Source of the DNA: an uncultured Alphaproteobacteria bacterium
Lineage (GTDB): Bacteria > Pseudomonadota > Alphaproteobacteria > CAAHEQ01 > UBA3637
Assembly: GCA_905236245.1 (NCBI GenBank)
Contig: CAJOPC010000029.1
Coordinates: 384 to 64,383, forward strand
Length of the DNA: 64,000 nucleotides
Direction of reading: 5' to 3'
Position 1 is the stretch's first letter. The number at the start of each line of letters is the position of its first letter. The notes under the pieces were generated by a model that saw only the letters and a program-made list of their open reading frames with translations, ran no database searches and was not told the DNA's origin. This document shows, in pieces, positions 12,959 through 50,300 of the stretch. The translations under genes were made by a program, and so were the position numbers.

Positions 12959-13032
12959 GCGGATGTAGTACAATGGTAGTACAGCAGCTTCCCAAGCTGA
13001 ATACGAGGGTTCGATTCCCTTCATCCGCTCCA
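12959..13032 (+). tRNA. tRNA-Gly (anticodon CCC), CCA encoded
   Basis: Manual cloverleaf: acceptor GCGGATG/CATCCGC, D arm GTAC/GTAC, anticodon loop TTCCCAA, T arm GAGGG-TTCGATT-CCCTT, terminal CCA. Length 74 nt. Confidence 0.9.
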
Positions 13033-13068: not shown

Positions 13069-13112
13069 ATAATCAATTTAACTTTCAGCAAACAAAAATA
13101 GGAAAATTTTCC

Positions 13113-13141
13113 TTGACTTTTAATATGATTTATGTTATAAT
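13113..13141 (+). promoter_or_regulatory. near-consensus extended -10 promoter for the orphan tail-fibre gene
   Basis: TTGACT (13113-13118), 17 nt, TGT-TATAAT (-10 at 13136-13141). A 125-nt leader follows. Confidence 0.55.
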
Positions 13142-13213
13142 CCTTTTTGTTAAAAGTGATAATTGTAATCACATCATTTTTAACATTTTATCAAATTATG
13201 TATCTTCAAAAAA

Positions 13214-13240
13214 GTCTTAGCTCCAAGCTAAGGCTTTCTT
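13214..13240 (+). terminator. terminator-like hairpin inside the tail-fibre leader (putative attenuator)
   Basis: GTCTTAGCT-CCA-AGCTAAGGC stem-loop, preceded by A6 and followed by TTTCTTGTT. It sits 27 nt upstream of the ATG at 13267. Confidence 0.35.
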
Positions 13241-13266: not shown

Positions 13267-14295
13267 ATGACAAATCACATAAAAATTTATGGGGTAGTTC
13301 CCCGCAAACAATATGTTGCCGACGGAAATACAACAACTTACGAATTTCCGTTTGCAATTTTTTCAGCAGATGACTTGGAAGTCTATTTAAACGAAACCAA
13401 GCAATCCAGCTCTCTTTACACCGTTACTGGAATTCGAAATTCTGATGGAGGTAGTGTGACATTTACAACTGCACCCACAAATAACACTATCATTACAATT
13501 GTCCGCAATTTATCCATAGAACGCACAAGTGATTTCCAAGAAGGTGGAGCCCTACGGGCAGACACTTTAAATGATGAATTGGATTACCAAATTGCCTGCC
13601 AACAGCAACTTGCCGACAATTTAAATCGCAGCATGGTTTTACCTCCTTATGCGGCGGATAACAATCTCAGCCTAACCCTGCCCTCCCCATCGGCGGGGAA
13701 AGCCATCATATGGAACACAAGTGGAACAAATTTGGAAAATTCTACAATTGCTGTCAACGAGTTAGAAAGCACCTTAAAAAGTTATAAAGAAACTGCACAA
13801 AGTGCCGCCTCTACCGCCACAACGAAAGCCAACATTGCCGCCGACAAAGCAACTATTGCTACGACCCAAGCACAAACGGCCACCACACAAGCCGGCATTG
13901 CAACCACCAAAGCCACAGAAGTCGCCACCGCCCTATCCGGCAAAGCGAATAAAGATATGGACAACCTATCTGACACAGGAAAGGCCAGTTTGCTTTCTTT
14001 AAACATTCCCGATTATAGTGCCGGCATAACAATCTCCGTTCCTAAGAGTTCCGAAACATATACAGCGCCTAAAGCAGGCATTTATGTCTTGTGTTATACA
14101 AATGCATCATCTGTCAGTGGCAAATATCTCACCGTCAACGGATCTAATGTCTATGGCTTTGAATATACAAGCACAGGAAATCCAGAACGCAATGCTATAA
14201 TTGTGTTAGATAAAGATGATGTTTTATCCTCCGACACAAACTCCGTTCCGGGGAACATTAAATTTTCAATTTTCTATCCATTGAAAGGAGCATAA
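13267..14295 (+). CDS. T7-type tail fibre protein (gp17-like N-terminal tail-attachment domain, Ala/Thr-rich shaft, unknown tip)
   Basis: 342 aa. YVADGNTTTYEFPFAIF...ITIVRNLSIERTSDFQEGGALRADTLNDELDYQ aligns by eye with T7 gp17 residues about 10-115 (YQLDGSNRDFNIPFEYL...[33 protein letters not shown]). A shaft-like repeat region follows (TKANIAADKATIATTQAQTATTQAGIATTKATEVATA). Confidence 0.8.
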   Translation: MTNHIKIYGVVPRKQYVADGNTTTYEFPFAIFSADDLEVYLNETKQSSSLYTVTGIRNSDGGSVTFTTAPTNNTIITIVRNLSIERTSDFQEGGALRADTLNDELDYQIACQQQLADNLNRSMVLPPYAADNNLSLTLPSPSAGKAIIWNTSGTNLENSTIAVNELESTLKSYKETAQSAASTATTKANIAADKATIATTQAQTATTQAGIATTKATEVATALSGKANKDMDNLSDTGKASLLSLNIPDYSAGITISVPKSSETYTAPKAGIYVLCYTNASSVSGKYLTVNGSNVYGFEYTSTGNPERNAIIVLDKDDVLSSDTNSVPGNIKFSIFYPLKGA

Positions 14296-14296
14296 T

Positions 14297-14602
14297 ATGA
14301 AAAAGCATGCTAAAATTACAAATGAAACGACAAAAGAATGTTCTGTTGGCTTTGGAACAAACACAGAATTTTATCAATCCATCGGGATGACAGAAATGGA
14401 CGTGGAACAAGCCTATAATGGTTCGTGGTATGTTACCGGATATGCCCCAACGGAACCAGAAAAAAGCTATGCCGAAAAAAGAAAAGCCGAATATCCTTCT
14501 ATCGAAGATCAGTTAGATATGATCTATTGGGACAAAATAAATGGAACCAATTTATGGCAAGACAAAATTACTGAGATAAAAGAAAAATATCCCAAAATTT
14601 AA
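14297..14602 (+). CDS. hypothetical protein translationally coupled to the fibre gene (possible fibre chaperone or accessory protein)
   Basis: 101 aa. Its ATG is 1 nt after the fibre stop. The role is inferred from position only. Confidence 0.45.
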   Translation: MKKHAKITNETTKECSVGFGTNTEFYQSIGMTEMDVEQAYNGSWYVTGYAPTEPEKSYAEKRKAEYPSIEDQLDMIYWDKINGTNLWQDKITEIKEKYPKI

Positions 14603-15336
14603 AGCCCTCGCCCTCGGCCCGTCATACGTTTGATGGGCCGAATTTTATTATTTGCATTTACGGAATTAAGCTCATCTACCGTATCAATTTCTATAATCTT
14701 TTCTTTCCCTATAGGTAAAACTTTTAATGCCAAAGAAGACAAGTTTTCATTGACAACTTCATCCCAAAATAAATTTCTATCTAAGCTCTTTGCATATTTT
14801 TCCTGAATCTTTTCGGCGATATAAGCGGCCTCCTTTTTTTTGAAGAAAGAAATCCCCGTCATGTTATAGCAATTATTGCCATTTTTACCGACTCTGGTTA
14901 TATATCCTCTGCTGTTGATATCAAAGACCCAATCATCAGACCTTCCCCTAATCATTTTTCCATAATAACCGGAAAATGTTGGGATAGGCATTAATATATT
15001 CGGATCCGGGATGTATAAATCCGCCTCACAAACAAAACAATCATCCTGCTTCATAAACTCAGCAGCATAATAAATGGACGATATATTATTTGCAGAATTA
15101 TAATCTGGATTGTGAATCAAGGTAATATTCGGATATTTATCTTTCAAATACTCAAACTGTTCGGCCAAATATCCGACAACAACATATATGTCGCGCACAT
15201 TGGCCGCCTGTAAACTTTTGAGAATAGACTCAATCATAGGCTCTCCATGCACTTTGATTAAGGGCTTAGGCCTGTTCTCCGTCAAAGGCCGCATGCGTGT
15301 TCCCAATCCAGAAGCCATTAAAATTGCATTAGTCAT
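14599..15336 (-). CDS. LicC/PntC-like nucleotidyltransferase (predicted phosphonate cytidylyltransferase)
   Basis: 245 aa. N-terminal ILMASGLGTRMRPLTENRPKPL NTP-transferase motif. Last gene of the phosphonate operon. Confidence 0.75.
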   Translation of the reverse strand: MTNAILMASGLGTRMRPLTENRPKPLIKVHGEPMIESILKSLQAANVRDIYVVVGYLAEQFEYLKDKYPNITLIHNPDYNSANNISSIYYAAEFMKQDDCFVCEADLYIPDPNILMPIPTFSGYYGKMIRGRSDDWVFDINSRGYITRVGKNGNNCYNMTGISFFKKKEAAYIAEKIQEKYAKSLDRNLFWDEVVNENLSSLALKVLPIGKEKIIEIDTVDELNSVNANNKIRPIKRMTGRGRGL

Positions 15337-16472: not shown

Positions 16473-16476
16473 CTTT

Positions 16477-18874: not shown

Positions 18875-18887
18875 ATTTATCCTTTCA

Positions 18888-19844: not shown

Positions 19845-19914
19845 CCTTATTCCCTTCCGTTAAAAATTTCTTTGTCTTTGTAGAACAAACATCTAGAGTA
19901 AATTATTATTTATC

Positions 19915-40328: not shown

Positions 40329-40964
40329 TTATTGACTAACCCAGATAACACGAGCCATCCAACAAACCTCTTCCGGAGTCAAAACAATCAAAGGATGTGC
40401 CGGATTTAATGATTTTAATTCAATTTGTTTGGCACTTTTTCGTTGCAACTCTTTTACCATAACTTCCCCGCTGGCTATTTTCACAACAACTCTGTCATGA
40501 GAACGCACCTCTGCATCCGGTTGAACAACCAATTTGTCTCCTTCACGATAAACAGGAGACATACTATCCCCGGATACTTCTAATGCATAAACACCTTTAG
40601 CTATTTGAACCGGAAAATCTATCCCATCCCAATCACCTGAGGACAAAGGATACCCAGCTGAATCAAAATATCCCTCGCGCCCGGCCTTTGCCAATCCTAA
40701 AAGAGGAATCGTATATTTAGGTGTCGGCATCGGTTGACCCGCATATTCCATAAATTCAAAAACCGTCGTGTTCGTTGCCTTCAAAACTTTATTCATACTC
40801 TCCGTTGATGGCCAACGTTTACGGCCATCGGCACCGATTCGTTTTGACTTGTTAAAACTCGTTGGATCCAATCCTGCCTTTTGGGCCAAAGCAGATAAAG
40901 ATAATCCCTTGGCCTCAGCCAATCTTTCCAAGCCATCCCAAATTTCTTTATACGACAATTGCAT
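40329..40964 (-). CDS. CI/LexA-like autocleavable repressor (HTH_XRE plus S24 peptidase)
   Basis: 211 aa. HTH LSLSALAQKAGLDPTSFNK. IPLLGLAKAG aligns with LexA PLVGRVAAG (Ala-Gly cleavage site). Catalytic GDSMSP Ser and downstream Lys (VMVKEL). Confidence 0.8.
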   Translation of the reverse strand: MQLSYKEIWDGLERLAEAKGLSLSALAQKAGLDPTSFNKSKRIGADGRKRWPSTESMNKVLKATNTTVFEFMEYAGQPMPTPKYTIPLLGLAKAGREGYFDSAGYPLSSGDWDGIDFPVQIAKGVYALEVSGDSMSPVYREGDKLVVQPDAEVRSHDRVVVKIASGEVMVKELQRKSAKQIELKSLNPAHPLIVLTPEEVCWMARVIWVSQ

Positions 40965-41048
40965 AGTGCCTCCTTTCTCTTTTTAGTTGTATATACATTT
41001 AACATATTTTTGTATAAATGTCAATAGGATTTTTTTCTTATTTTTCTC

Positions 41049-41116: not shown

Positions 41117-41473
41117 ATGAGGAATAAATACCTATCGTCAAACGAGCAAGAAACAACACCTTTTGAATCATCAGAAGAAGCATGGTTTTGGTATTGTTTA
41201 TGCGAAAAAGAAAAATCAAATAACCGTCGCCAATACACACCCAAAATTATCAGGCCTTGTGAAACGGCAGATATTTTTATTGCCGTCAAAAGGCTGCTTA
41301 AATTAGGAATTCTAAAACCTTATCATATTAAAATTTTATCCAAATATGGTTTCCAACAAGTGCCACCACACCCACATTTTGGAGACAGCCTAACTATTTG
41401 TCATTTGTGGAAAGAGGCCTTACATTTTTTGGAACGGCTTTTAGTTCAAAAAGGGATCGTCTTTAATTCGTAA
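41117..41473 (+). CDS. hypothetical early protein (candidate regulator)
   Basis: 118 aa. RBS AAAGGGG. No recognisable motif. First gene downstream of the SOS-box promoter. Confidence 0.5.
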   Translation: MRNKYLSSNEQETTPFESSEEAWFWYCLCEKEKSNNRRQYTPKIIRPCETADIFIAVKRLLKLGILKPYHIKILSKYGFQQVPPHPHFGDSLTICHLWKEALHFLERLLVQKGIVFNS

Positions 41474-41490
41474 AAAAGGAGAAAAAGCTT

Positions 41491-41889
41491 ATGATTACTA
41501 CATGTCTTTCATTTGGCTATCGCTTACCATTTGCCTTTGTTGCTTTCGGCGGATCTCCCACACATTGGTGGACAAAATTTTTAAAAAAGGGATTTTACCA
41601 TTGCTTTTTAATTTTAGGAAATGGACGCGAATGGTATATTATTGATCCAGTCATGCATTTTACTGACTTTATCGTCGTCAAAACGCATTATATTGAAAAT
41701 TTTTTCATTCAAAAAGGATATCGGCTGATTCGCACAACGCCATTGTTACCACAAAAAATTTCTTTCTTTTTTCGCCCTTGCACTTGCGTTGAAACAGTTC
41801 GACGTTTTTTGGGTATTCAGCATCCTTTTTTATGGACTCCTTATCAACTTTTTTGTTATTTAACTAAAAAAAAGGAAAATAATCCTTGA
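41491..41889 (+). CDS. hypothetical early protein
   Basis: 132 aa. RBS AAGGAG. Trp/Phe/Cys-rich, with no recognisable motif. Confidence 0.45.
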   Translation: MITTCLSFGYRLPFAFVAFGGSPTHWWTKFLKKGFYHCFLILGNGREWYIIDPVMHFTDFIVVKTHYIENFFIQKGYRLIRTTPLLPQKISFFFRPCTCVETVRRFLGIQHPFLWTPYQLFCYLTKKKENNP

Positions 41890-41914
41890 CATTTGCAAAA
41901 AAATGTGTTATACT
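41886..41914 (+). promoter_or_regulatory. near-consensus extended -10 promoter for the structural operon
   Basis: TTGACA (41886-41891, overlapping the upstream stop codon), 17 nt, TGT-TATACT (-10 at 41909-41914). The palindrome ACTGTT-C-AACAGT lies at 41912-41924. Confidence 0.5.
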
Positions 41915-41950
41915 GTTCAACAGTTAAAATCAATCAGTGTATCTAATATC

Positions 41951-41989
41951 AAAATCGCTCTTTCAACAGGGCGATTTTTCTATTTTTAA
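41951..41989 (+). terminator. terminator-like hairpin between the structural promoter and the portal start (putative attenuator)
   Basis: AAAATCGCTC / GGGCGATTTT stem (one G-U pair), 8-nt loop, then TCTATTTTT. It ends about 16 nt before the portal ATG. Confidence 0.4.
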
Positions 41990-42004
41990 TTGAAAGGAAA
42001 AATC

Positions 42005-43507
42005 ATGTCAGATATCACTCTTATATACAACACTTATAAACGAGCGCTGCAAGATCGTCAAGCGTGGGAATCCACTTGGCAAGAATGTTATGCCTATGCC
42101 CTCCCGCAACGAGAATCCATTTTGAATTCTACTTCTAGCAAAACTAGCATCTTATATGATGGCACAGCACCTGACGCCGTGGATCAACTGGGAGCCTTGA
42201 TGTTATCTCAACTCACGCCACCTTGGATGAATTGGTTTAAACTAACGGCAGGAAATGACTTAAACGAATCGGAACAAAAGGCTTTACTTCCTCAATTGGA
42301 AAAAATGACAAATACGATTCAAACACATTTTGATCGCAGCAATTTTGCGATGGAAATCCATCAATGCTATTTGGACTTAATTACAGCAGGAACCGCCTGT
42401 TTGATGTTTGAAGAATCACCTTTTGGCGCCGCATCTGCCTTTCACTTTTCCGCCGTCCCGCTTTCGCAACTGTGTTTAGCAGAAGGTCCTTCCGGGCGTT
42501 TAGATTATATTTTCAGAACTGTTCAAATGGATTATGATTCATTTACGAATCGTTTTGGAGACTTTATTTTGCCAACAGACGTTATTGTCAAAGCACGCAA
42601 AGAACCAATTCGATTGGATGTTATTGAATGTGTTGAGCCCAATCAAGATGGGTCTTTTTCCTACACTGCATTTTTAGATCCCAATTGCCAACACCTCTCC
42701 AATAACGGAGAACCTGTCATGCTAAAACAAGCGCATTATGACACCTCTCCGTTTATTGCTTTCCGTTGGCTAAAAGCCCCGGGAGAAGTTTACGGCCGTT
42801 CCCCCGTTATGAAAGCTTTGCCAGACATTAAAACGGCAAACAAGGTTGTGGAACTTATCCTTAAAAACGCCACAATCGCCGTAACGGGTATCTGGCTTGC
42901 CGAGGATGATGGCGTGTTAAATCCTGCCAACATCCGTCTAACCCCGGGAGCCATTATTCCCAAAGCCGTTGGATCTAAGGGGCTAACAGCTCTGGAATCT
43001 CCAGGGAAATTTGATGTATCACAATTGGTCATTAAAGATTTAAGAGAACGTATCAGGCACGCTTTATTGGGAGATAGATTAGGCCAATTAGACACATCTG
43101 CCCCGATGACTGCAACAGAAGTGCTTGAAAGAGCAGATGAAATGTTGTTGGTTTTAGGCGCAACGTATGGTCGTTTACAATCGGAATTATTGATGCCATT
43201 AATTGAACGCGCCGCCGCTATTTTACGCAAACGTGGAGAAATCCCCGATATTTTCATTGATGGTCATTATTTAAAAATCGCCTATCAATCTCAACGAGCA
43301 GAAAAGCAAGCCCGGATCAACGCACAAAACGGCCTTACATGGCTTGGTGAAATATCTAAATTAGGAGAAGCCGCACTCGGCCAAATTGATATTCCTGCCT
43401 TTATTCGATGGCTGGGACATAATTTAAACATTCCGGAAAGCGTTTTTAACAAAGCAGTTTCTGCTCCCCTTATCCCGCTTTCACAACCACAAACTCAAGG
43501 AGAATAA
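42005..43507 (+). CDS. portal (head-to-tail connector) protein, T7 gp8 family
   Basis: About 500 aa from the ATG at 42005 (RBS AAAGGA). N-terminal RQAWESTWQECYAYALPQRE...LYDGTAPDAVDQLGALMLSQLTPPWMNWFKL is typical of podoviral Head-tail_con portals. Confidence 0.8.
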   Translation: MSDITLIYNTYKRALQDRQAWESTWQECYAYALPQRESILNSTSSKTSILYDGTAPDAVDQLGALMLSQLTPPWMNWFKLTAGNDLNESEQKALLPQLEKMTNTIQTHFDRSNFAMEIHQCYLDLITAGTACLMFEESPFGAASAFHFSAVPLSQLCLAEGPSGRLDYIFRTVQMDYDSFTNRFGDFILPTDVIVKARKEPIRLDVIECVEPNQDGSFSYTAFLDPNCQHLSNNGEPVMLKQAHYDTSPFIAFRWLKAPGEVYGRSPVMKALPDIKTANKVVELILKNATIAVTGIWLAEDDGVLNPANIRLTPGAIIPKAVGSKGLTALESPGKFDVSQLVIKDLRERIRHALLGDRLGQLDTSAPMTATEVLERADEMLLVLGATYGRLQSELLMPLIERAAAILRKRGEIPDIFIDGHYLKIAYQSQRAEKQARINAQNGLTWLGEISKLGEAALGQIDIPAFIRWLGHNLNIPESVFNKAVSAPLIPLSQPQTQGE

Positions 43508-43508
43508 G

Positions 43509-44189
43509 ATGATAAAAACTCAAGACAAAACCAATAAAATAATCAATTCTGATGACGAAATGATCAAAATTCCAAATAAATTTTTGGACGCAGAAGGCCA
43601 ATTAAACACGGCTGCTTTAATAAAATCCTATTTGGAATTAGAGCGTAAATTATCAGAAATAAAATCAAATGAAAATGTTCCTTCTCAATCGGTCACAGAG
43701 TATAAACTCACAATGAAATCGCCGCTTATTCAAGAAGATCCGGAAATTGATCAAACATTATTACAACATGGATTCACAAATGAACAAGCACAAGTGGTCT
43801 ATGATTTAGCGGCTGATAAAATTATTCCGGCATTACAAAACTTGATGGACGACATCACAACAGATCAAGAGCTGAAAGGATTAGAACAAGCTTTCGGCGG
43901 CCCAGAACAATTCAACATTGTCGCACGCCAAATTTCCGCTTGGGGAGAAAAAAATTTAGATCAAAAAACATTTAACGCTTTGGCTTCGTCAAAAGATGGT
44001 ATTTTAACAATGTATAAGATGATGCAAGGCAATTTAGAATCACCTTTGTTAAAAGGCCAAGGGCAAATGACGCCTCAAGATGATGAAGCATCCTTGAAAA
44101 AATTGATGCAAAATCCAAAATATTGGCGCGATCAAGATCCAGAGCTATTAAAACGCGTAGAGGCTGGTTTTAAACGCCTTTACGATTAA
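43509..44189 (+). CDS. capsid scaffolding protein
   Basis: 226 aa. IPNKFLDAEGQLNTAALIKSYLELERKL is typical of podoviral scaffolds. Lies between portal and capsid, with its ATG 1 nt after the portal stop. Confidence 0.7.
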   Translation: MIKTQDKTNKIINSDDEMIKIPNKFLDAEGQLNTAALIKSYLELERKLSEIKSNENVPSQSVTEYKLTMKSPLIQEDPEIDQTLLQHGFTNEQAQVVYDLAADKIIPALQNLMDDITTDQELKGLEQAFGGPEQFNIVARQISAWGEKNLDQKTFNALASSKDGILTMYKMMQGNLESPLLKGQGQMTPQDDEASLKKLMQNPKYWRDQDPELLKRVEAGFKRLYD

Positions 44190-44295
44190 ACCTTTTGTGG
44201 ACAAGTCTTTTGACCCCACGGAAAAATCGGGCGAAGGCAACTTCATAACCCACAACTTTAAAACAAAAAAATAACAAATAACGAAAGGAATTATT

Positions 44296-45168
44296 ATGTC
44301 TGTATCAACAGCAATTGATGCTTCGTTTGTAAAACATTTTGAAGCAGAAGTTCACAACGCTTATCAACAACAGGGTTCAAAACTCAGAAACACCGTCCGT
44401 TTTAAAGGCGGCATTACAGGAACAAGCACGACCTTCCAGGTCATTGGCGCTCAATCTGCCAATCAAAAATCTTCTCGCAACGCTCAGCTGACACCATCTG
44501 CCGTGACACATGCTCCTGTGGAATGTGAATTGTCCGACTGGTATGCCGGTCAATGGGTAGACAAATTAGATGAATTAAAAATCGGCCACGATGAACGCAA
44601 AGTGTTGGCCACAGCTGGCGCCTATGCTTTGGGCCGCAAAACAGATGCTTTGATTATTACAGCACTCAGCAACGCAAGCAACACCGCAGGCACATCCAGC
44701 GAAGCTTTGACAAAAGATCGTATCTTGTCCGCCTTTGCTACCTTAAACAGCAACAATGTGCCGGATGACGGTGAACGTTACGCTCTGGTCGGCCCAGCAC
44801 AGTGGAATCAACTGCTCAGCTTGGATGAATTTTCCAATGCAAACTATGTAGGTGATGAGCACCCATTTGTGGCCGGCTCCGAATCGCGCAAGTGGATGGG
44901 CATCAACTGGATCATGCACACAGGATTACCAACATCCGGATCAGGTTCCAGCGCAACAACCACATGCTTTATTTACCATAAATCCGCCGTCGGCTTGGCC
45001 GCTGGTCAGGACATTACAACCGACATCACATGGCATGGCGACTATGCTGCCCATTATGTGAACAACATGATGAGCCAAGGCGCTTGCTTAATTGACAACA
45101 ACGGCGTTGTCAAAATGGTTTGTTTGGATACACCTCCTGCCGCAGAAGATGCCAACGCAGAAACCTAA
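44296..45168 (+). CDS. major capsid protein
   Basis: 290 aa. Position and composition fit, and it is followed by a strong terminator. N-terminal FVKHFEAEVHNAYQQQGSKLRNTVR and AYALGRKTDALIITAL resemble podoviral coat proteins. Confidence 0.75.
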   Translation: MSVSTAIDASFVKHFEAEVHNAYQQQGSKLRNTVRFKGGITGTSTTFQVIGAQSANQKSSRNAQLTPSAVTHAPVECELSDWYAGQWVDKLDELKIGHDERKVLATAGAYALGRKTDALIITALSNASNTAGTSSEALTKDRILSAFATLNSNNVPDDGERYALVGPAQWNQLLSLDEFSNANYVGDEHPFVAGSESRKWMGINWIMHTGLPTSGSGSSATTTCFIYHKSAVGLAAGQDITTDITWHGDYAAHYVNNMMSQGACLIDNNGVVKMVCLDTPPAAEDANAET

Positions 45169-45229: not shown

Positions 45230-45799
45230 ATGTCTTATACAAAAATTGATTTATGTTCCCGCGCATTAGTTAAACTGGGGGCAAACAGTATTGCTTCGTT
45301 TAATGAAGCAACCGCAGAAGCTAAAGTTTGTGCGCAATTGTATGAACCAACGGTTGAAAGCTTATTGGCATCATATCCTTGGCGTTTTGCATTAGAAAAA
45401 GCTACGCTCGCTCGCCTTACATCTAAACCAACGGCAGATTACCAATACGCCTATCAACTGCCCAATAATTGCGTTCGCGTTCTTTCCGCAGGCAACGGAA
45501 GCAAAAGCCAAGGTTTAAAATACAAAATCGTTGGCAATATGTTGCATACAAATGCAGATCAAGTCATTATTTCCTATATTGCCAGGCCAGACGAATCGGT
45601 CTTCCCTGCATTTTTCAGCAATGCTCTAATTGCTAAATTAGCCGCAGAATTATGCCTTCCGCTCACTGAAAGCACCGCACGGACAGATTATATGTATAAA
45701 CGAGCAGAAGAGGAATTTAAAATTGCAAAATTGACTGACAGCCAACAAGATGTCCCCGCTTGTTTCCAAGATTTTTCTTTAATTGAGGTACGCCAATGA
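45230..45799 (+). CDS. tail tubular protein A / adaptor (T7 gp11-like)
   Basis: 189 aa (T7 gp11 is 196 aa). IDLCSRALVKLGANSIASFNEATAEAKVCAQLYEPTVESLLASYPWRFA parallels gp11 [46 protein letters not shown]. Confidence 0.7.
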   Translation: MSYTKIDLCSRALVKLGANSIASFNEATAEAKVCAQLYEPTVESLLASYPWRFALEKATLARLTSKPTADYQYAYQLPNNCVRVLSAGNGSKSQGLKYKIVGNMLHTNADQVIISYIARPDESVFPAFFSNALIAKLAAELCLPLTESTARTDYMYKRAEEEFKIAKLTDSQQDVPACFQDFSLIEVRQ

Positions 45800-47721
45800 C
45801 AAATATTTTTACAAGCAAAACAAATTTTGCCGCAGGAGAATTGTCAACAGACCTATTGGGACGCGTCGACATTAATGCATATGCCAATGGCGCCTTATCC
45901 TTGAAAAATGTGTTTGTAGAACCAACAGGAGGGGTTCATCGTCGGCCTGGGCTGCAATTTATGGCAAATGTATCGTCATCCGGTCGCTTGATTGCCTTTG
46001 AACAATCACAATCTAAAAGGTATTTAATATTAGTCCAAGCTGGTCAAACACGTATTTATCAAGGGGATACTTTGGTTGACACCCTTACAACACCATGGAC
46101 ACAAACACAGCTTTCTCAAATTGCATGGTGTCAATTGAATAACGGCATTTTAATCGTTCATCCGGATGTAGCACCACGTAAAATCGTTCTAAATAATACA
46201 ACATGGTCTCTTCAAAATTTTGCATTTTTAGAGGAAGATAATTGTATTTTACAACCCTATTACCGATTCGCTGGAGATGATGTGACTATAGCGTCTAGCG
46301 GATGTGGCGGTACAGTCACATTAACTACTAGCGCTGATGTGTTCACCAACGACCATATTGGCATGCAATTTAAAATTGCTGATGGATATGTTTTAATTCA
46401 ATCTGTTACCAATGCTACACAAGCAACGGGCGTCGTAAAAAAGAAACTCATGGATGGAGAAAACATTGGTGATTCCACTGCACTAAATGCAACGCGCCAT
46501 TGGGGAGAGCCAGCCTTTACAACACAACGCGGATGGCCTTCAACAGTTTGCACCTATCAATCCAGATTAGTTTTTGGCGGAAGCAAATCTTTACCAAGCA
46601 CTTTATGGTTCAGTCAAACTGGTGACATTACCAATTTCGAACAAGGGGATGGTTATGATGCAGAAGCAATTGAATTTCAAATATTGTCTAACCAATCAGA
46701 TCATATTGCCGCCCTTTTTGCTGGACGCCATTTGCAAGTATTCACCGCCAGCGCAGAATGGATGGTATCAGGAGATCCTTTAACTCCATCCAACATCCAA
46801 TTAAAACGCCAAACCCAAGTTGGCAGTCGAACCGATATTTTTGTTCCACCAATTGGCATTGATGGCGCCACTATTTTTGCGGGAGCTGATGGCCACGAAA
46901 TCCGTGAATTTTTATTTTCGGATTTAGAAGGAGTCTATCAAGCAACGGACTTATCTTTATTGGCTCGCCATTTAATTCAAAAGCCCATTGATATGGCTTA
47001 TGATAAACATGAGCGGCAAGCCTATATTGTCATGAATAATGGTCATTTGGTCACTCTGACTTCGTTTAGAGCGGAAGATTTACAAAGCTGGACCGAACAA
47101 ATAACAGACGGAGCATTTTTATCCGTTGCTATCTTGGGTGAAACAGCCTATTTTTTAATCAAACGAGGAGAAAACTATTTCCTTGAATGTTTTAATAATA
47201 CGCTTCATACAGACGCGGGAATTACTCGCGAACTTGAAAGCGCTACAACAACATTCACTAGCTTAAATCACTTAAACGGCAAAACTGTTTCTATTGTTGG
47301 AGACGGCATTGTTATGGAACCGATGGAGGTTCAAAACAATCAATTAGTTTTACCGCATGCTGTTGAAAAAATAGAAATAGGCCTACCGTTTACGCATATT
47401 ATCATACCATTACCACCCGTCGCCTCTGCTAATAACGGAGCGGCCCCGGTATCCAGTTGTCGTTTGGTCAGAGCTGTTTTTAGATTGGTAGACACATTTT
47501 CTTTGGAAATTGATACTGGAACAGGTGTTCATCAAGAAATTGTTCCAGAAATGGACACATATTGTTTGGACAATTCAACCACACAACAAACAAAAGATTT
47601 GGTATTGCGATCACTGGGCTGGGTTCGCAGCCCCACACAACCTTTGTGGGAAATTATTGGTTCAAGTCCACAGGCATTTAAATTAGTGTCTGTTACTAGT
47701 GACATTAAATTAGGAGGTTAA
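45796..47721 (+). CDS. tail tubular protein B / nozzle (T7 gp12-like)
   Basis: 641 aa. ATGA overlap with the adaptor gene. The N-terminus GELSTDLLGRVDINAYANGALSLKNVFVEPTGGVHRRPG resembles the gp12-type nozzle N-terminus. Confidence 0.7.
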   Translation: MTNIFTSKTNFAAGELSTDLLGRVDINAYANGALSLKNVFVEPTGGVHRRPGLQFMANVSSSGRLIAFEQSQSKRYLILVQAGQTRIYQGDTLVDTLTTPWTQTQLSQIAWCQLNNGILIVHPDVAPRKIVLNNTTWSLQNFAFLEEDNCILQPYYRFAGDDVTIASSGCGGTVTLTTSADVFTNDHIGMQFKIADGYVLIQSVTNATQATGVVKKKLMDGENIGDSTALNATRHWGEPAFTTQRGWPSTVCTYQSRLVFGGSKSLPSTLWFSQTGDITNFEQGDGYDAEAIEFQILSNQSDHIAALFAGRHLQVFTASAEWMVSGDPLTPSNIQLKRQTQVGSRTDIFVPPIGIDGATIFAGADGHEIREFLFSDLEGVYQATDLSLLARHLIQKPIDMAYDKHERQAYIVMNNGHLVTLTSFRAEDLQSWTEQITDGAFLSVAILGETAYFLIKRGENYFLECFNNTLHTDAGITRELESATTTFTSLNHLNGKTVSIVGDGIVMEPMEVQNNQLVLPHAVEKIEIGLPFTHIIIPLPPVASANNGAAPVSSCRLVRAVFRLVDTFSLEIDTGTGVHQEIVPEMDTYCLDNSTTQQTKDLVLRSLGWVRSPTQPLWEIIGSSPQAFKLVSVTSDIKLGG

Positions 47722-47722
47722 C

Positions 47723-48187
47723 ATGGAAGTCGCTATTGCCGCCGTCGGCGCCGCTATCGTCGGATCGGCTTATTATTCAAAAGAAACGGCTGACAATCAA
47801 AAAAAGGCCATTAAAAAATCAAATGCCCTTGCCGCTGCACAAGCAGATTTAGATCGTCAATCTGCCCAAATGTTGTTAGAAGAACAACAACGTAAAAACA
47901 AAAATTTACTGCGTCAACAACAATCTAGCTATAAAGCCAAACTCGGCGCAAGCGGATTGAATCATACAAATGGTTCCGGGCAAATTATTCTAGATGCTCT
48001 ACAAAAAGAGCACGATATAGAAGATAAATACCTTGTAGAACAAGCAAAAATATCTTTGCAATCCTTGGATAATGCTCTGGAACAAACAACACGCAGGAAT
48101 TTACTTGCATTAGATAATATATCTGCAAACCAGAAAAAAGACATATTGGATGGTATCAGCAGTACTGGACGGAGTATAATTAAATAA
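47723..48187 (+). CDS. internal virion protein, gp14-like
   Basis: 154 aa. Hydrophobic N-terminus AIAAVGAAIVGSA, then a Gln/Ala-rich coiled coil, like T7 gp14. Position after the nozzle gene. Confidence 0.45.
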   Translation: MEVAIAAVGAAIVGSAYYSKETADNQKKAIKKSNALAAAQADLDRQSAQMLLEEQQRKNKNLLRQQQSSYKAKLGASGLNHTNGSGQIILDALQKEHDIEDKYLVEQAKISLQSLDNALEQTTRRNLLALDNISANQKKDILDGISSTGRSIIK

Positions 48188-48197
48188 GGAGTTCCAT

Positions 48198-48479
48198 ATG
48201 TCCGATAGGAATATTCCCCCGGCAACCGATTGGAGCTCGTTTTTAACAAAGGCAACCCAAGATTATTATCATTTTGCAATGCAATCAACTCCTTTGGATG
48301 CAAAAGAATTTAGTGCCTATCACAGCGCGTGTAAGGCTGCTTTAAGCCATATTTTAATTCTAAAAAAACTTATTGAAAATTCATCGGACAAAACAACAGA
48401 GCCCGATCTTTTTTCCTTATTGGAAAATGCACGAAAGGCAACCTATGACCCGGACGGAACAAATGATTCATTTGATTGA
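48198..48479 (+). CDS. small ORF in the terminase small-subunit position (T7 gp18 size)
   Basis: 93 aa versus 89 aa for T7 gp18. Acidic C-terminus. Immediately upstream of and overlapping TerL. Assigned by position and size only. Confidence 0.35.
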   Translation: MSDRNIPPATDWSSFLTKATQDYYHFAMQSTPLDAKEFSAYHSACKAALSHILILKKLIENSSDKTTEPDLFSLLENARKATYDPDGTNDSFD

Positions 48480-49872
48480 ATTTGTATGGATTTGGAATCA
48501 ACAATTAAAATTTGATTTACCCAAACACCACCGTGCTATTTGTCGCTTTTTAGAAACCTTTTTTCAAAATGATAAGCGCGGGCTATTAATGGCCTTTCGG
48601 GCATCCGGCAAATCTACCTTGGTCGGATTATTTTGTGTATGGGCCCTAAGATTAAATCCAAACTTGCGCATTTTAATTGTCGCTGCCGATCATAATTTGG
48701 CGAAAAAGATGGTTCAACATATAAAAAGAATCATCAACAAACATCCATTATGCCAAGATATGAAACCGATACATCCGGACGAATGGGCTTCAGATTGCCT
48801 GTCCGTCCGACGGCAAGATACCGGACGAGATCCATCCGTTTTAGCCAAAGGATTAGGCGCAAACTTGACCGGCTGCCGCGCAGATTTAATTATCTGTGAT
48901 GATGTAGAAGTTCCTAAAACAAGCGATTCGGCTACAAAGCGTCATGAGTTGCGACAAAAATTATCTGAATTAGATTATATTTTAACATCTAATGGAGGTA
49001 TTTTATATATCGGCACACCCCATGCAAAAGAGACTATTTACAATACACAAGATGGCTTCTTAAAAAATTGGCCTGTTTTAAAAATTCCTATTTTGAATAA
49101 AAATGGAGAATCTAATTGGCCAGAGAAATTTGCTATTGAAAAAATTGAGGCCTTAAAAAAACAAACAGGTCCAACAAAGTTTTATAGCCAAATGATGTTA
49201 GACCCTATCAAAAGCGCAACGAATCGTTTGGACACAAGCCGGCTTGTTTTCTATGATGACGAAATCAGTTATCATGAAGCAAATGAAGCATCCACATTAA
49301 AAATAGGCAACAATCAAATGGTCTCTGTTTCCTGTTGGTGGGATCCCGCCTTTGGATCAGCAAAAGGAGATCGCAGTGTTATTGCCTGTGTTTTTTCAGA
49401 TGCAAACGGACACTATTATTTGCACCGCATTGCTTATTTAAAGGTTCCACCTCATATGGAAGCTGCGGGCTATCAATGTCGTGAAGTTGTTGCTTTTATT
49501 CAGGAAAATCACCTGCCGGCTATTCATTTGGAAAGCAATGGCATTGGTAAATTTTTACCTGCCTTATTGCGACAAGAGTTAAACAAAGCGCATGTTGCCT
49601 GTGCGGTCATTGAAGAAATTTCTCGCACCCACAAACAAGACCGTATCTTGGCCGCATTTGAAGTGCCGCTGATGAACGGAGCGCTATCTGTGCATACTAG
49701 CATTAAAAACACGCCTTTTATGGATGAATTGCAAGACTTTCATCCTTTTATTGCCAAAGGACATGATGATGCTTTGGATGCCGTTGCTGGCTGCCTCTTA
49801 TCCGAACCGGTTCGTTTAAAATATAAAACATTTATCAATCCTGTCCATCAAAATTGGCAGGGTTATTTTTGA
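48445..49872 (+). CDS. terminase large subunit
   Basis: Start is taken at MTRTEQ (RBS AAAGG). Walker A MAFRASGKST, Walker B ADLIICDDVE, and nuclease-domain WWDPAFGSAKGDRSV. Confidence 0.85.
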   Translation: MTRTEQMIHLIEFVWIWNQQLKFDLPKHHRAICRFLETFFQNDKRGLLMAFRASGKSTLVGLFCVWALRLNPNLRILIVAADHNLAKKMVQHIKRIINKHPLCQDMKPIHPDEWASDCLSVRRQDTGRDPSVLAKGLGANLTGCRADLIICDDVEVPKTSDSATKRHELRQKLSELDYILTSNGGILYIGTPHAKETIYNTQDGFLKNWPVLKIPILNKNGESNWPEKFAIEKIEALKKQTGPTKFYSQMMLDPIKSATNRLDTSRLVFYDDEISYHEANEASTLKIGNNQMVSVSCWWDPAFGSAKGDRSVIACVFSDANGHYYLHRIAYLKVPPHMEAAGYQCREVVAFIQENHLPAIHLESNGIGKFLPALLRQELNKAHVACAVIEEISRTHKQDRILAAFEVPLMNGALSVHTSIKNTPFMDELQDFHPFIAKGHDDALDAVAGCLLSEPVRLKYKTFINPVHQNWQGYF

Positions 49873-49883
49873 AAGGAAACAAA

Positions 49884-50291
49884 ATGACAGAATTAGAAAT
49901 TTTTGCAAAAACATTGTTTGGAGAAGCGCGTGGAGAAAAACTGTCCGGCATTGAGGCCGTTGCTAATGTAATTTTAAACCGCGTCAAACATGCTATCCAA
50001 ATCGGCAATTATTGGTGGGGGAAAACAATTGAAGAAGTTTGTTTAAAACCATTTCAATTTTCTTGCTGGAATAAAGCCGATCCCAATTACACCTTATTGA
50101 CCCAAAATTTGGATGATAATAAGGTCTATCAACTTTGTAAACGCGTTGCCAAACGAGCCATTACCGGCTTTTTAACGGATAACACAAATGGAGCGACACA
50201 TTATCACACCAAAAGCATCCATCCCCAATGGGCCAGGCGCGCCGTTCCATGTGCCGACATAGGACAACATCTTTTTTATGCATTGTATTAG
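49884..50291 (+). CDS. SleB/CwlJ-type cell-wall hydrolase (endolysin)
   Basis: 135 aa from the ATG at 49884 (RBS AAAGGAAA). LFGEARGE...AVANVILNRV...PFQFSCWN is the Hydrolase_2 signature. Confidence 0.85.
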   Translation: MTELEIFAKTLFGEARGEKLSGIEAVANVILNRVKHAIQIGNYWWGKTIEEVCLKPFQFSCWNKADPNYTLLTQNLDDNKVYQLCKRVAKRAITGFLTDNTNGATHYHTKSIHPQWARRAVPCADIGQHLFYALY

Positions 50292-50300
50292 GAGATCCAT

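What the first reader, a model, noticed from the sequence alone, without database searches (positions are those of the whole stretch)
13267..14602. Orphan T7-type tail-fibre gene 27 kb from the tail genes it should dock onto, next to tRNA-Gly
Seen:
- The 342-aa ORF has an N-terminal domain that aligns by eye with the T7 gp17 tail-attachment domain (DG..F..PF ... R......R..DF.(D/E)G..LRA..LN).
- An Ala/Thr-rich shaft and an unrelated tip follow.
- A coupled 101-aa ORF follows the fibre gene.
- The pair sits alone between tRNA-Gly(CCC) and a surface-glycan operon, with its own near-consensus promoter.

Established: in T7 the gp17 N-domain binds the gp11/gp12 junction. The only gp11/gp12-like genes in this window are at 45230-47721, and that cluster lacks a fibre.

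Inference:
- The fibre is the missing component of the 40-51 kb module, making a split locus.
- Its neighbour, a phosphonoglycan operon, could specify the receptor glycan.
Basis: partly seen in the sequence, partly recalled or inferred. Interest (0 to 1): 0.7.

Follow-up and report, generated by a model that had tools for sequence, protein, structure and literature searches.

The report
Relocated tail fibre of domesticated T7-like particle
The "orphan" gene is the receptor-binding tail fibre of a small, chromosomally fixed T7-like particle-making gene set 26 kb away. It has been moved out of that operon to sit beside a variable surface-sugar locus, but it keeps the operon's own promoter, and the whole system looks like an undescribed podovirus-type gene transfer agent.

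Summary
ORF 13267-14295 has a podophage fibre-anchor N-domain, a helical shaft and a hypervariable C1q-like tip. A translationally coupled 101-aa gene follows it.

The split-locus reading is supported by three independent lines:
- In about 125 related elements from Acetobacteraceae/Rhodospirillales, a fibre with the same N-domain (40-54% identity) sits inside the same gene set, between nozzle/gp14-like and terminase.
- An exact 18-mer, AGGAAAATWWTCCTTGAC, occurs only twice in the 64-kb window: at the fibre promoter and at the portal promoter.
- Fibre and nozzle families share contigs, genomes and samples.

The 40.3-50.6 kb set has no integrase, no replication genes and no gp15/gp16. Its dN/dS (0.01-0.13) equals that of flanking host genes. 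In other genera it occupies one chromosomal site.

Its late-promoter 19-mer also heads RcGTA-type clusters in metagenomes (29 of 44 loci). The best reading is therefore a domesticated, probably SOS-inducible, GTA-like T7-type particle with a dispersed fibre locus.

Across 27 species the fibre faces glycan-synthesis genes, but tip-glycan covariation was inconclusive. Particle production, DNA packaging and gene transfer are untested.

The parts
13099..13141 (+). Fibre late promoter: palindrome TAGGAAAATTTTCCT abutting -35 TTGACT, 17-nt spacer, TG-extended -10 TATAAT
   Evidence: 11/12 match. The exact 18-mer AGGAAAATWWTCCTTGAC occurs only here and at 41873 in the window. It is conserved upstream of the fibre in at least 20 species.
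13149..13183 (+). Leader hairpin 1 followed by a T-run (GTTAA...hairpin...TTTTTAAC), terminator-like
   Evidence: Conserved in about 30 species. The stem covaries: 30 compensatory cells against 13.9+-3.3 in shuffles, 0 of 500 shuffles reaching the observed value.
13211..13237 (+). Leader hairpin 2 (12-bp stem) just before the ribosome-binding site; second terminator-like element
   Evidence: A GC-rich hairpin plus T-run lies at the same place in other species.
13267..14295 (+). Tail fibre, 342 aa. N-terminal T7-type anchor (about aa 1-125), helical shaft (aa 160-226), hypervariable C1q/TNF-like tip (aa about 245-342).
   Evidence: 774 homologues; residues 1-240 conserved and the tip variable.
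14297..14602 (+). Translationally coupled 101-aa fibre-associated protein (possible assembly factor or distal component)
   Evidence: coupling. Follows the fibre in 30 of the 36 other gut-lineage loci mapped, and in the in-module version L051/L087. The C-terminal 45 aa match small ORFs inside the tail-fibre clusters of P-SSP7 and HTVC010P.
14614..14641 (+). Terminator-like hairpin between the fibre pair and the convergent glycan operon
   Evidence: 11-bp stem, 7 GC pairs, T-rich tail.
40329..40964 (-). LexA/CI-type S24 repressor with intact Ser, Lys and Ala-Gly cleavage motif; divergent from the element
   Evidence: Pfam Peptidase_S24 1.3e-22. UmuD and lambda CI hits. Invariant S134, K171 and A94-G95 in 12 orthologues. 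Present at the left end of nearly all elements.
41026..41039 (+). Third copy of the AGGA-W6-TCYT element, in the S24/o118 divergent promoter region
   Evidence: The three sites in the window give 5 strand-wise matches against 0.22 expected.
41117..41889 (+). Two conserved small genes (118 aa and 132 aa), candidate early regulators (activator or antiterminator); function unknown
   Evidence: Conserved in all elements. No Pfam, NCBIfam, PHROG or PDB hit. The o118 model is a 4-helix protein whose best, non-significant TM-scores are to antiterminator Q21.
41873..41979 (+). Portal-operon late promoter (AGGAAAATAATCCTTGACA, 17-nt spacer, TATACT) plus a leader with terminator-like hairpin 41955-41974 and T-run
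   Evidence: The same arrangement occurs in L004. An AT-rich version is kept in 65-74% GC elements.
41990..45168 (+). Portal (41990-43507), T7-type scaffold (43509-44189), major capsid protein (44296-45168)
   Evidence: Head-tail_con 3.6e-122, Phage_T7_Capsid 1.1e-10, Phage_capsid_2 1.4e-70; PHROGs.
45230..48187 (+). gp11-like adaptor (45230-45799), gp12-like nozzle (45796-47721), gp14-like internal protein (47723-48187)
   Evidence: phrog_394 8e-53, phrog_376 5e-124, T7_gp14 6e-5. The nozzle family keeps a constant length of 632-644 aa in 1111 homologues.
48198..50612 (+). 93-aa ORF (small-terminase candidate by position only), large terminase, Hydrolase_2 cell-wall hydrolase, 103-aa coiled-coil protein
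   Evidence: dN/dS 0.01-0.09.

Best explanation
**What it is.** ORF 13267-14295 is the receptor-binding tail fibre of a domesticated T7-like (podovirus-type) particle. The particle's other roughly 13 genes lie at 40.3-50.6 kb.

**Shown:**
- The fibre's N-domain is the anchor type that docks onto the adaptor/nozzle of podophages.
- In sister lineages the homologous fibre is encoded inside the same gene set.
- In this gut lineage, the fibre and a small partner gene have been moved out of the operon.
- The moved pair carries its own copy of the element's late promoter and terminator-bearing leader.
- The gene set lacks integration, replication and gp15/gp16 genes. It evolves under the same purifying selection as its host neighbours, and in other genera it sits at one chromosomal site.

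**Inferred:**
- DNA damage cleaves the LexA/CI-type repressor.
- The two small early genes then activate or antiterminate the AGGA-W6-TCYT late promoters at both loci.
- Capsid, tail and fibre are thus made together, the terminase fills heads with DNA (most likely host DNA), and the hydrolase releases the particles.
- That makes it a gene-transfer-agent-like system with a dispersed fibre locus.
- The variable C1q-like tip probably binds a surface glycan. Placing the gene beside the variable glycan locus would keep fibre and receptor genetically linked.
For: **Fibre identity:**

**In-module arrangement in relatives:**
- tblastn maps of 45 genome loci and 79 IMG/VR loci.
- The Elioraea fibre N-domain is 41% identical (E 7e-39) and carries PF03906 plus a beta-helix.
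- L051/L087 has fibre plus o101 inside the module.

**Shared cis-elements:**
- The exact 18-mer occurs only at 13100 and 41873.
- AGGA-W6-TCYT occurs at exactly three element sites against 0.22 expected.
- The 18-mer occurs upstream of the fibre in more than 20 species and upstream of the portal in L004, and an AT-rich version of the motif is retained in GC-rich elements.
- The leader hairpin covaries.

**Co-occurrence:**
- Contig lengths 106423, 170379 and 346611 and locus-tag prefix II942 appear in both family tables.
- The same samples carry both.
- S24/o118 or cyclophilin lie within 10 kb of the fibre in L015, L037, L028 and L029.

**Domestication:**
- No integrase or replication genes.
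- Flanks are host genes.
- The right flank EamA-pyrD-HAD is shared by Elioraea and Neoroseomonas.
- dN/dS is 0.01-0.13 for 13 element genes and 0.03-0.07 for 6 host genes, at equal dS.
- Element GC tracks host GC, from 0.39 to 0.74.
- The closest phages are at most 30% identical.
- IMG/VR holds only 12-14 kb versions, never a 35-40 kb phage.

**GTA link:**
- The 19-mer promoter heads RcGTA-type clusters in 29 of 44 metagenome loci.
- Activation plus antitermination that coordinates dispersed loci is the known GTA logic (PMC11150451; 10.1101/2024.11.20.624540).

**Glycan adjacency:**
Against: - No experiment shows particles, packaged DNA or transfer. GTA function rests on gene content, selection and a shared promoter.
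- Direct Pfam membership of the N-domain in PF03906 is below threshold.
- The trans-acting regulator is unknown. o118 and o132 show no detectable similarity to GafA/GafYZ or any other family, and the Q21 resemblance is not significant.
- The repressor keeps its catalytic residues, unlike RogA.
- Systematic genome-by-genome co-occurrence could not be computed, because only one genome scan was allowed.
- Tip-glycan covariation was not significant (rho 0.087, p 0.10). In the one pair with similar tips, the immediately adjacent genes differ.
- dS values of 0.8-1.8 are near saturation, so the dN/dS ratios are approximate.
- The rest of this genome was not available, so another T7-like element elsewhere cannot be formally excluded.
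Confidence: 0.7

Rival explanations
1. The 40-51 kb cluster is a decaying T7-like prophage remnant, and the fibre gene is a leftover fragment. Neither has a function now.
For: The cluster lacks replication, integration and gp15/gp16 genes, as remnants do. IMG/VR calls such regions proviruses.
Against: - The identical gene set and order recur, with intact full-length ORFs, in more than 120 elements across several alphaproteobacterial lineages.
- Nozzle length is constant in 1111 homologues.
- dN/dS is 0.01-0.13, equal to host genes.
- The capsid protein is 95-96% identical between species whose nrdD is 84% identical.
- Promoter and leader are conserved at both loci.
Confidence: 0.06
2. The fibre belongs to a different, complete prophage or phage elsewhere in the genome. 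It only happens to lie 26 kb from a fibre-less module.
For: Only 64 kb of the genome is visible. Some MAGs carry two fibre loci (L018/L020, L024/L027). One 30.8-kb IMG/VR contig (L165) has a 39%-identical N-domain without the module within 10 kb.
Against: - Every in-operon homologue of this N-domain that was found sits in the same mini-element, next to its nozzle.
- The fibre promoter is the element's own late promoter.
- The gut-lineage module has exactly the fibre slot empty.
- No 35-40 kb phage with this fibre was found in IMG/VR. The annotated phage collection was searched with the nozzle and the 101-aa protein, not with the fibre.
Confidence: 0.03
3. The element is a mobile phage satellite (PICI or cf-PICI-like). 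It makes its own capsid and tail but depends on a helper phage for replication and spread, and it packages itself.
For: Its small size (10-14 kb), its own terminase and capsid, and a CI-like repressor resemble capsid-forming satellites (own knowledge of cf-PICIs).
Against: - No integrase, primase/replicase or att-like boundaries. Flanks are housekeeping genes.
- The element sits at the same chromosomal site in different genera.
- dS equals that of neighbouring host genes, indicating co-divergence.
- The fibre gene is separated from the rest by 7-26 kb of host genes, so it could not travel with the element in a small head.
Confidence: 0.07
4. The particles are made and selected for, but their role is not gene transfer. 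They could be an SOS-induced killing, lysis or altruistic-death device, or a decoy against related phages.
For: The loss of gp15/gp16 questions productive DNA delivery. SOS-type control and a lysis enzyme fit bacteriocin-like release.
Against: - Capsid, portal, scaffold and large terminase are all retained under strong selection. A DNA-free killing device would not need them.
- The late promoter is shared with RcGTA-type gene transfer agents.
- RcGTA also lacks its own cytoplasmic entry machinery and uses recipient competence proteins (own knowledge).
Confidence: 0.12

Closest known systems
Bacteriophage T7 gp17 tail fibre (and the anchor domains of Przondovirus/Friunavirus tailspikes such as Dpo31)
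   Same: - N-terminal anchor domain of about 125 aa (profile hit to Dpo31, 2e-17; Foldseek hits to fibre chains in the LME-1, Carin-1, Kp7, PhiM1 and T7 7ey9 tail complexes).
- The domain is followed by a helical shaft and a C-terminal receptor-binding domain.
- In relatives the gene is encoded next to gp11/gp12 homologues.
   Different: - Only 342 aa (T7 gp17 is 553 aa, from my own knowledge).
- The tip is a C1q/TNF-like jelly-roll.
- The Pfam PF03906 score is below threshold.
- The gene is not in the tail operon here but 26 kb away, with its own promoter copy.
- It is carried by a cell, not by a phage genome.
RcGTA-type gene transfer agents of Alphaproteobacteria (Rhodobacter capsulatus RcGTA, Caulobacter CcGTA)
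   Same: - Phage-derived structural cluster without replication or integration genes, vertically kept under purifying selection.
- Accessory structural genes (fibres, spikes, lysis) lie at separate loci under common control (PMC12946183 introduction; PMC11150451).
- The same 19-mer promoter element heads RcGTA-type clusters in 29 of 44 metagenome loci.
- Promoter plus downstream terminators suggests antitermination, as shown for CcGTA.
   Different: - The structural proteins are T7/podovirus type (portal PF12236, T7 scaffold, gp11, gp12, gp14-like), not HK97-type siphovirus.
- The adjacent regulator is a cleavable LexA/CI-type protein, whereas RogA lacks catalytic residues (PMC9632790).
- No detectable GafA/GafYZ homologue.
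- No functional data.
FpGTA of Faecalibacterium prausnitzii (PMC12946183)
   Same: A gut bacterium's GTA-like element, described as probably podovirus-like and encoded at two loci, with fibre/RBP and lysis genes in the second locus.
   Different: FpGTA is in Firmicutes and has experimental packaging data. That paper calls it the first podovirus-like GTA-like element. The present element is alphaproteobacterial, T7-like, and shares its promoter with RcGTA-type clusters.
BaGTA of Bartonella: Q-like antiterminator BrrG (bioRxiv 10.1101/2024.11.20.624540), and lambda Q / P_R'-t_R'
   Same: - A strong promoter carries a nearby protein-binding element and is followed by a leader with terminator(s) ahead of the late structural genes.
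- One factor integrates physically separate loci.
   Different: Here antitermination is only inferred from conserved, covarying hairpin-plus-T-run leaders. The factor is unidentified, and o118's resemblance to Q21 is not significant (TM 0.40-0.42, E 6-8).
Free-living podophages closest to the nozzle: Yersinia phages YeP4-6 and Pelagibacter HTVC-type podophages
   Same: A homologous tail tubular B/nozzle over 89-99% of its length. Small o101-like ORFs lie inside their tail-fibre clusters.
   Different: Identity is at most 30%. These are 34-36 kb autonomous phage genomes. The element's nozzle is 40-45% identical across alphaproteobacterial hosts, so it forms its own cellular clade.

Membership tests
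T7 gp17-type tail fibre (Phage_T7_tail N-terminal domain, PF03906) | N-terminal domain scores above the curated Pfam threshold for PF03906 | tested here: not met
   No hit at E<=1 for the window protein. The Elioraea homologue scores 19.3 bits against a cutoff of 25.2. Precomputed hits are flagged weak.
T7 gp17-type tail fibre (Phage_T7_tail N-terminal domain, PF03906) | N-domain homologous in sequence and fold to the anchors that attach fibres or spikes to the podophage adaptor/nozzle | tested here: met
   phrog_1640 5e-23 plus 12 tail PHROGs. Profile against PDB: Dpo31 2e-17 and LME-1 orf22 7e-10. Foldseek: 9efk 1.4e-5, 8ck1 2.5e-5, T7 7ey9 7.6e-3.
T7 gp17-type tail fibre (Phage_T7_tail N-terminal domain, PF03906) | Helical shaft followed by a variable C-terminal receptor-binding domain | tested here: met
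   Helix 160-226 and beta-sandwich 270-339 in the model. C1q/CBM35-like matches. Residues 1-240 are conserved and the last 100 or so are hypervariable in 47 homologues.
T7 gp17-type tail fibre (Phage_T7_tail N-terminal domain, PF03906) | Genetically associated with gp11/gp12 homologues | tested here: met
   Adjacent to gp12/gp14-like in about 124 related elements. Here it is 31 kb from gp11 but shares the late promoter.
T7 gp17-type tail fibre (Phage_T7_tail N-terminal domain, PF03906) | Physically docks as a trimer at the gp11/gp12 interface | not testable with these tools
   No multimer prediction or particle data were available.
Gene transfer agent (GTA / viriform) | Phage-derived particle genes that lack the means of self-propagation (no replication, integration/excision or own-genome packaging capacity) | tested here: met
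   Only a repressor, 2 small ORFs, head, tail, terminase and lysis genes are present. Flanks are host genes. No gp15/gp16, DNA polymerase, RNA polymerase or integrase appears in any mapped element.
Gene transfer agent (GTA / viriform) | Long-term vertical inheritance with purifying selection | tested here: met
   dN/dS 0.01-0.13 at the same dS as host neighbours. Conserved chromosomal site across genera. GC tracks the host.
Gene transfer agent (GTA / viriform) | Dispersed accessory loci co-regulated with the main cluster | tested here: met
   The fibre locus and the portal operon share the exact 18-mer promoter element and terminator-bearing leaders. Co-expression itself was not measured.
Gene transfer agent (GTA / viriform) | Particles package more or less random host DNA and deliver it to recipient cells | not testable with these tools
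   Needs induction, sequencing of particle DNA and transfer assays.
RcGTA-like GTA (HK97-type siphovirus cluster g1-g15) | HK97-type portal, prohead protease and capsid, TP901-1-type tail, GafA/GafYZ regulator | tested here: not met
   The window proteins are T7 type. RcGTA-type genes were seen only in unrelated metagenome loci. No GafA-like hit for o118/o132. Only the promoter motif is shared.
Complete temperate T7-like prophage | Integrase, DNA/RNA polymerase and primase module, internal core proteins gp15/gp16, about 35-45 kb | tested here: not met
   The element is 10.3 kb here and 12-14 kb in relatives, and has none of these genes.
Tailocin / phage-tail bacteriocin | Tail-only particle without capsid, portal or terminase | tested here: not met
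   Portal, scaffold, capsid and TerL are all present and under selection.
Phage satellite (PICI / cf-PICI) | Integrase, replication initiator and att-bounded mobile island | tested here: not met
   None of these is found. The element holds a fixed site flanked by housekeeping genes.

The most novel reading that the evidence does not exclude
This would be a previously unrecognised type of gene transfer agent: a T7-like, podovirus-type particle domesticated early in Alphaproteobacteria (Acetobacteraceae, Rhodospirillales, gut and rumen lineages).

- It would be wired into the same promoter system as the classical RcGTA-type agents and induced through a cleavable LexA/CI-like repressor.
- In gut lineages its receptor-binding fibre has been relocated next to the hypervariable surface-glycan island. 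Fibre specificity and the cell's own glycan coat would then be inherited together, which would restrict DNA exchange to kin.
Probability: 0.4. Interest if true: 0.88.

Novelty: new variant of a known kind. Interest (0 to 1): 0.74.

Why it matters
Only a handful of GTA types are known, and almost all functional knowledge comes from one siphovirus-type family. A second, structurally unrelated particle in the same bacterial class would matter for four reasons.

- **Promoter sharing.** If the particle uses the same promoter element, host regulatory circuits may have captured different phages repeatedly. That would make GTA "domestication" testable as a general process.
- **Cultured carriers.** Elioraea, Neoroseomonas, Roseomonas, Belnapia and Magnetospirillum carry the element, so experiments are feasible now.
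- **Gut relevance.** For gut and rumen Alphaproteobacteria, which are known only as MAGs, it points to a route of horizontal gene transfer. It also points to a concrete pairing between a receptor-binding protein and a glycan locus.
- **Annotation.** These 10-14 kb regions are currently called proviruses, and the fibre is called an orphan phage gene. Both labels mislead.

Tried and rejected
- **Direct Pfam assignment of the fibre to PF03906.** No hit. I relied on PHROGs, a PDB profile and fold comparison instead.
- **Tip versus neighbouring-glycan similarity** across 27 species (351 pairs). Spearman 0.087, p 0.10. The one pair with similar tips (L015/L028) does not share the immediately adjacent genes. 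Result: inconclusive, not negative.
- **o118/o132 as GafY/GafZ or GafA.** No Pfam (including DUF6456 and DnaA_C), NCBIfam, PHROG or PDB sequence hit, even when 51 orthologues were scanned. Foldseek on a good o118 model (pLDDT 86) gave nothing significant; Q21 has the top TM-score only.
- **S24 protein as a RogA equivalent.** Rejected as stated, because the catalytic Ser and Lys and the Ala-Gly site are intact.
- **Rfam.** Only the tRNA was found; no known RNA family covers the leaders.
- **Conserved position next to tRNA-Gly/nrdD.** This holds only for close relatives (W, L001, L019). Other species have other tRNAs or none.
- **Chimeric fibre+nozzle query to get genome-wise co-occurrence.** The tool drew its patterns only from the fibre half, so no independent nozzle census was obtained. 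It did, unexpectedly, reveal the unsplit elements.
- **Looking up the 170-kb and 346-kb contigs for exact fibre-module distances.** The tool returned other contigs carrying the same proteins.
- **Literature searches** for a T7-like or podoviral GTA in Alphaproteobacteria. Nothing was found.
Full report
**1. The observation.**
ORF 13267-14295 (+, 342 aa) and ORF 14297-14602 (+, 101 aa) exist as described. The fibre's final codons contain AAAGGAG. Its TAA stop is one base before the next ATG, so the two genes are translationally coupled.

The surroundings also match the description:
- tRNA-Gly(CCC) lies at 12959-13032.
- A TTGACT-17-TATAAT promoter with an extended TG lies at 13113-13141.
- A terminator-like hairpin follows the pair at 14614-14641.
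- The convergent neighbours are a nucleotidyltransferase, class-V aminotransferase, TPP decarboxylase, PEP mutase, LicD and a GT2/RgpF protein. Together these form a phosphonate-decorated glycan pathway.

**2. Is it a T7-type fibre?**
- A direct Pfam scan did not report PF03906. Formal family membership by the curated threshold therefore fails.
- Residues 11-124 match phrog_1640 'tail protein' at 5e-23, plus a dozen other tail and tail-fibre PHROGs.
- A 47-sequence profile hits the N-terminal anchor of tailspike Dpo31 (2e-17) and orf22 of the LME-1 portal-tail complex (7e-10).
- The AlphaFold model (pLDDT 75.6) matches the fibre-anchor chains of several podophage tail reconstructions by Foldseek, including T7 7ey9.
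- Residues 160-226 form one long helix.
- The last 100 or so residues form a beta jelly-roll that resembles C1q/TNF trimers and CBM35.
- Among 774 homologues, residues 1-240 are conserved and the tip is hypervariable. That is the signature of a receptor-binding protein.

**3. The 40-51 kb module.**
Its gene order is:
- a divergent S24 repressor (40329-40964, minus strand);
- two small ORFs;
- portal, T7-type scaffold and capsid;
- gp11-like, gp12-like and gp14-like proteins;
- a 93-aa ORF;
- TerL;
- a Hydrolase_2 enzyme;
- a 103-aa coiled-coil protein.

It has no fibre, no gp15/gp16, no polymerases and no integrase. Its flanks are ordinary genes: an OMP, a bPH protein, a SixA-like protein, YgjP and cyclophilin. 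No second fibre N-domain exists in the window.

**4. Does the fibre belong to it?**

*(a) Relatives carry the fibre inside the module.* A scan of species-representative genomes with a fibre motif returned two classes.
- Gut and rumen 'Alphaproteobacteria' MAGs have a stand-alone fibre.
- Free-living Acetobacteraceae/Rhodospirillales (Elioraea, Neoroseomonas, Roseomonas, Belnapia, Rhodovarius, Magnetospirillum) have the same motif lying next to the nozzle gene.

tblastn maps of 45 such genome loci and 79 IMG/VR contigs all show the same order: S24, o118, o132, portal, scaffold, capsid, gp11, gp12, (gp14-like), fibre, TerL, hydrolase.
- The Elioraea fibre (763 aa) is 41% identical over the N-domain (7e-39). 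It continues into a pectate-lyase-like beta-helix.
- A low-GC element (L051 = L087) has fibre, then the 101-aa gene, then the 93-aa gene, then TerL. The pair therefore originated inside the operon.
- In gut MAGs the gap between fibre and module varies. S24/o118 lie 7 kb downstream in L037. S24 lies 9 kb upstream in L015. The module's flanking cyclophilin gene lies 3-8 kb away in L028 and L029. The gap is 26 kb here.

*(b) Shared cis-elements.*
- The 18-mer AGGAAAATWWTCCTTGAC occurs exactly twice in the window: at the fibre promoter (13100) and just upstream of the portal gene (41873).
- The looser palindrome AGGA-W6-TCYT marks three sites. The third lies in the S24/o118 divergent region. The expected count is 0.22.
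- The 18-mer lies upstream of the fibre in more than 20 species and upstream of the portal in another species.
- An AT-rich version survives in front of the structural genes of 65-74% GC elements.
- Both leaders carry hairpin-plus-T-run elements. The first fibre-leader hairpin covaries across species: 30 compensatory cells against 13.9+-3.3 in shuffles, with 0 of 500 shuffles reaching that value.

*(c) Co-occurrence.*
- Identical longest-contig lengths (106423, 170379, 346611) and locus-tag prefix II942 appear in both the fibre and the nozzle homologue tables.
- Both genes are present in the same samples.

**5. What is the element?**
It behaves as a resident cellular gene set, not as a prophage.
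- Gene content is identical in more than 120 instances.
- Nozzle length is constant at 632-644 aa across 1111 homologues, down to 45% identity, on contigs up to 845 kb.
- Against a syntenic close relative (L172), all 13 genes have dN/dS of 0.01-0.13. Six flanking host genes give 0.03-0.07, at the same dS.
- The Elioraea element lies between LysRS/MprF and EamA-pyrD-HAD. That right flank is shared with Neoroseomonas and others.
- Element GC follows host GC, from 0.39 to 0.74.
- The closest bona fide phages (Yersinia YeP4-6, Pelagibacter HTVC podophages) are at most 30% identical in the nozzle.
- IMG/VR holds only 12-14 kb versions.
- The repressor keeps the LexA/CI catalytic Ser and Lys and an Ala-Gly site. 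This suggests SOS induction.

**6. The link to gene transfer agents.**
- A metagenome scan for the 19-mer TAGGAAAATWWTCCTTGAC gave 44 loci with at least 1.5 kb of downstream sequence.
- In 29 of them the motif directly precedes RcGTA-type genes (g1, TerL, HK97 portal, protease and capsid). In L231 the order continues through the head-tail connector TIGR02215, head closure and the TP901-1-type tail protein. Two further loci are the T7-like element.
- The fibre and portal promoters therefore use the same element as the classical alphaproteobacterial GTAs.
- In Caulobacter, GafY activation plus GafZ antitermination coordinates the main cluster with about 18 accessory promoters (PMC11150451).
- In Bartonella, a Q-like antiterminator joins two loci (bioRxiv 10.1101/2024.11.20.624540).
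- The promoter-plus-terminator leaders seen here fit that logic.
- The trans factor is unknown. o118 and o132 have no detectable family. The o118 model's best TM-scores, though not significant, are to Q21.
- I found no paper describing a T7-like GTA. PMC12946183 (2026) calls FpGTA of Faecalibacterium the first podovirus-like GTA-like element.

**7. The 101-aa partner.**
- It follows the fibre in most gut loci.
- Its C-terminal 45 residues match small ORFs embedded in the tail-fibre clusters of the T7-like cyanophage P-SSP7 (PSSP7_040) and of Pelagibacter phage HTVC010P (gp26).
- It is absent next to the long beta-helix tailspikes of the GC-rich elements.
- A fibre assembly or accessory role is inferred, not shown.

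**8. The glycan neighbour.**
- In 27 species, the four genes downstream of the fibre pair are almost all convergent. They are dominated by glycan-synthesis families among 106 proteins: GT2 14, GT8 6, hexapeptide transferases 5, RgpF 4, GT1 4, nucleotidyltransferases 4, plus DegT, GDP-mannose dehydratase, RmlD, GLF and LicD.
- The four upstream genes (99 proteins) are mixed housekeeping genes, with only two sugar epimerases.
- A further species has CMP-sugar synthetase, sialyltransferase and GT8 in that position.
- The adjacency is therefore recurrent while the clusters themselves differ.
- Whether tip and glycan co-vary could not be settled. Species-level tips are nearly all unrelated. The single similar pair (tip 84% identical against N-domain 67%) differs in the adjacent genes.
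- Receptor specification remains a hypothesis.

**9. Verdict.**
- The finding is real, and its main inference is right.
- The larger result is that the 'module' is a widespread, selected, non-autonomous T7-like particle system. It uses GTA-type promoter architecture, and in gut lineages its fibre has become a dispersed locus beside the surface-glycan island.
- Shown: homology, architecture, shared cis-elements, selection and synteny.
- Inferred: SOS induction, activation or antitermination by the small ORFs, DNA packaging and transfer, and glycan binding.

Noticed in passing
window 13099-13117 and 41872-41890; metagenome loci L173-L252: The 19-mer TAGGAAAATWWTCCTTGAC that heads the fibre also sits directly upstream of RcGTA-type gene clusters (g1, TerL, HK97 portal, protease and capsid) in GC-rich metagenome contigs. 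The portal promoter in this window carries the 18-mer core of the motif, with A in place of the leading T. This holds for 29 of 44 loci with enough downstream sequence. The following roughly 45 nt are also conserved (TTGACGGCGTGACGG...TAGGGT...).
   Followed up: partly
window 13149-13237 and 41915-41979; alignment A5: Both late leaders carry hairpin-plus-T-run elements between the promoter and the ribosome-binding site. The first fibre-leader hairpin has covarying stems and a conserved TGTATC-like loop across about 30 species. Within one genome, the fibre and portal leaders resemble each other (L001 and L004). This suggests control by antitermination.
   Followed up: partly
loci L001, L019, L020, L021, L022, L024, L027, L032, L066, L169 and window 12959-13032: In 11 of 37 gut-lineage loci a co-oriented tRNA gene lies within 1.2 kb upstream of the fibre cassette, but the tRNA differs (Gly, Pro, Val, Gln, Glu, Thr). 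The cassette, or the glycan island it borders, seems to sit repeatedly at tRNA-flanked variable regions.
   Followed up: partly
L018+L020 (JAFXFY01) and L024+L027 (JAZQUH01); L048, L054, L070, L088, L108, L109: Some gut MAGs have two separate fibre cassettes. Magnetospirillum-type elements carry 2-3 fibre N-domain paralogues and a 6-7 kb insert between nozzle and TerL, which suggests several alternative receptor-binding proteins.
   Followed up: no
L015 and L028, 10650-11025: Two species share a fibre tip at 80-84% identity although their N-domains are only 64-67% identical. This indicates that tips are exchanged by recombination.
   Followed up: partly
L039 5075-5350, L042, L080 and other GC-rich elements: GC-rich elements have an extra conserved small ORF of about 90 aa (MGGLFRAP...RKSLLGE) between the late leader and the portal gene. 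It appears to be absent in the gut-lineage module.
   Followed up: no
window 41491-41889 (o132); alignment A7: The 132-aa protein family has invariant His-Cys (GFRHCF) and Cys-Val positions and no family match. This could be a catalytic or metal-binding site rather than a DNA-binding regulator.
   Followed up: no
window 40329-40964 (minus strand): The adjacent S24 protein keeps Ser134, Lys171 and an Ala94-Gly95 site in all 12 orthologues aligned. It is therefore a cleavable LexA/CI-type repressor. The RogA repressor of Caulobacter GTA is reported to lack these residues.
   Followed up: yes
metagenome loci L242, L204, L217, L209, L239, L174, L252: Low-GC contigs carry the same promoter and hairpin leader in front of first ORFs unrelated to fibre, portal or RcGTA genes. 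These may be further members of the same regulon, or other elements.
   Followed up: no
L165 (IMGVR_UViG_3300025853_000412, 30.8 kb, GC 0.45): This is the only IMG/VR relative of the fibre N-domain (39% identity) that has none of the mini-element genes nearby. It may be a genuine phage using a related anchor.
   Followed up: no
window 14599-23013 (minus strand): A complete-looking 2-aminoethylphosphonate pathway (PEP mutase fused to a cytidylyltransferase, phosphonopyruvate decarboxylase-like TPP enzyme, aminotransferase) lies with LicD and a 1032-aa GT2/RgpF protein. This implies a phosphonate-decorated surface polysaccharide in an uncultured gut alphaproteobacterium.
   Followed up: no
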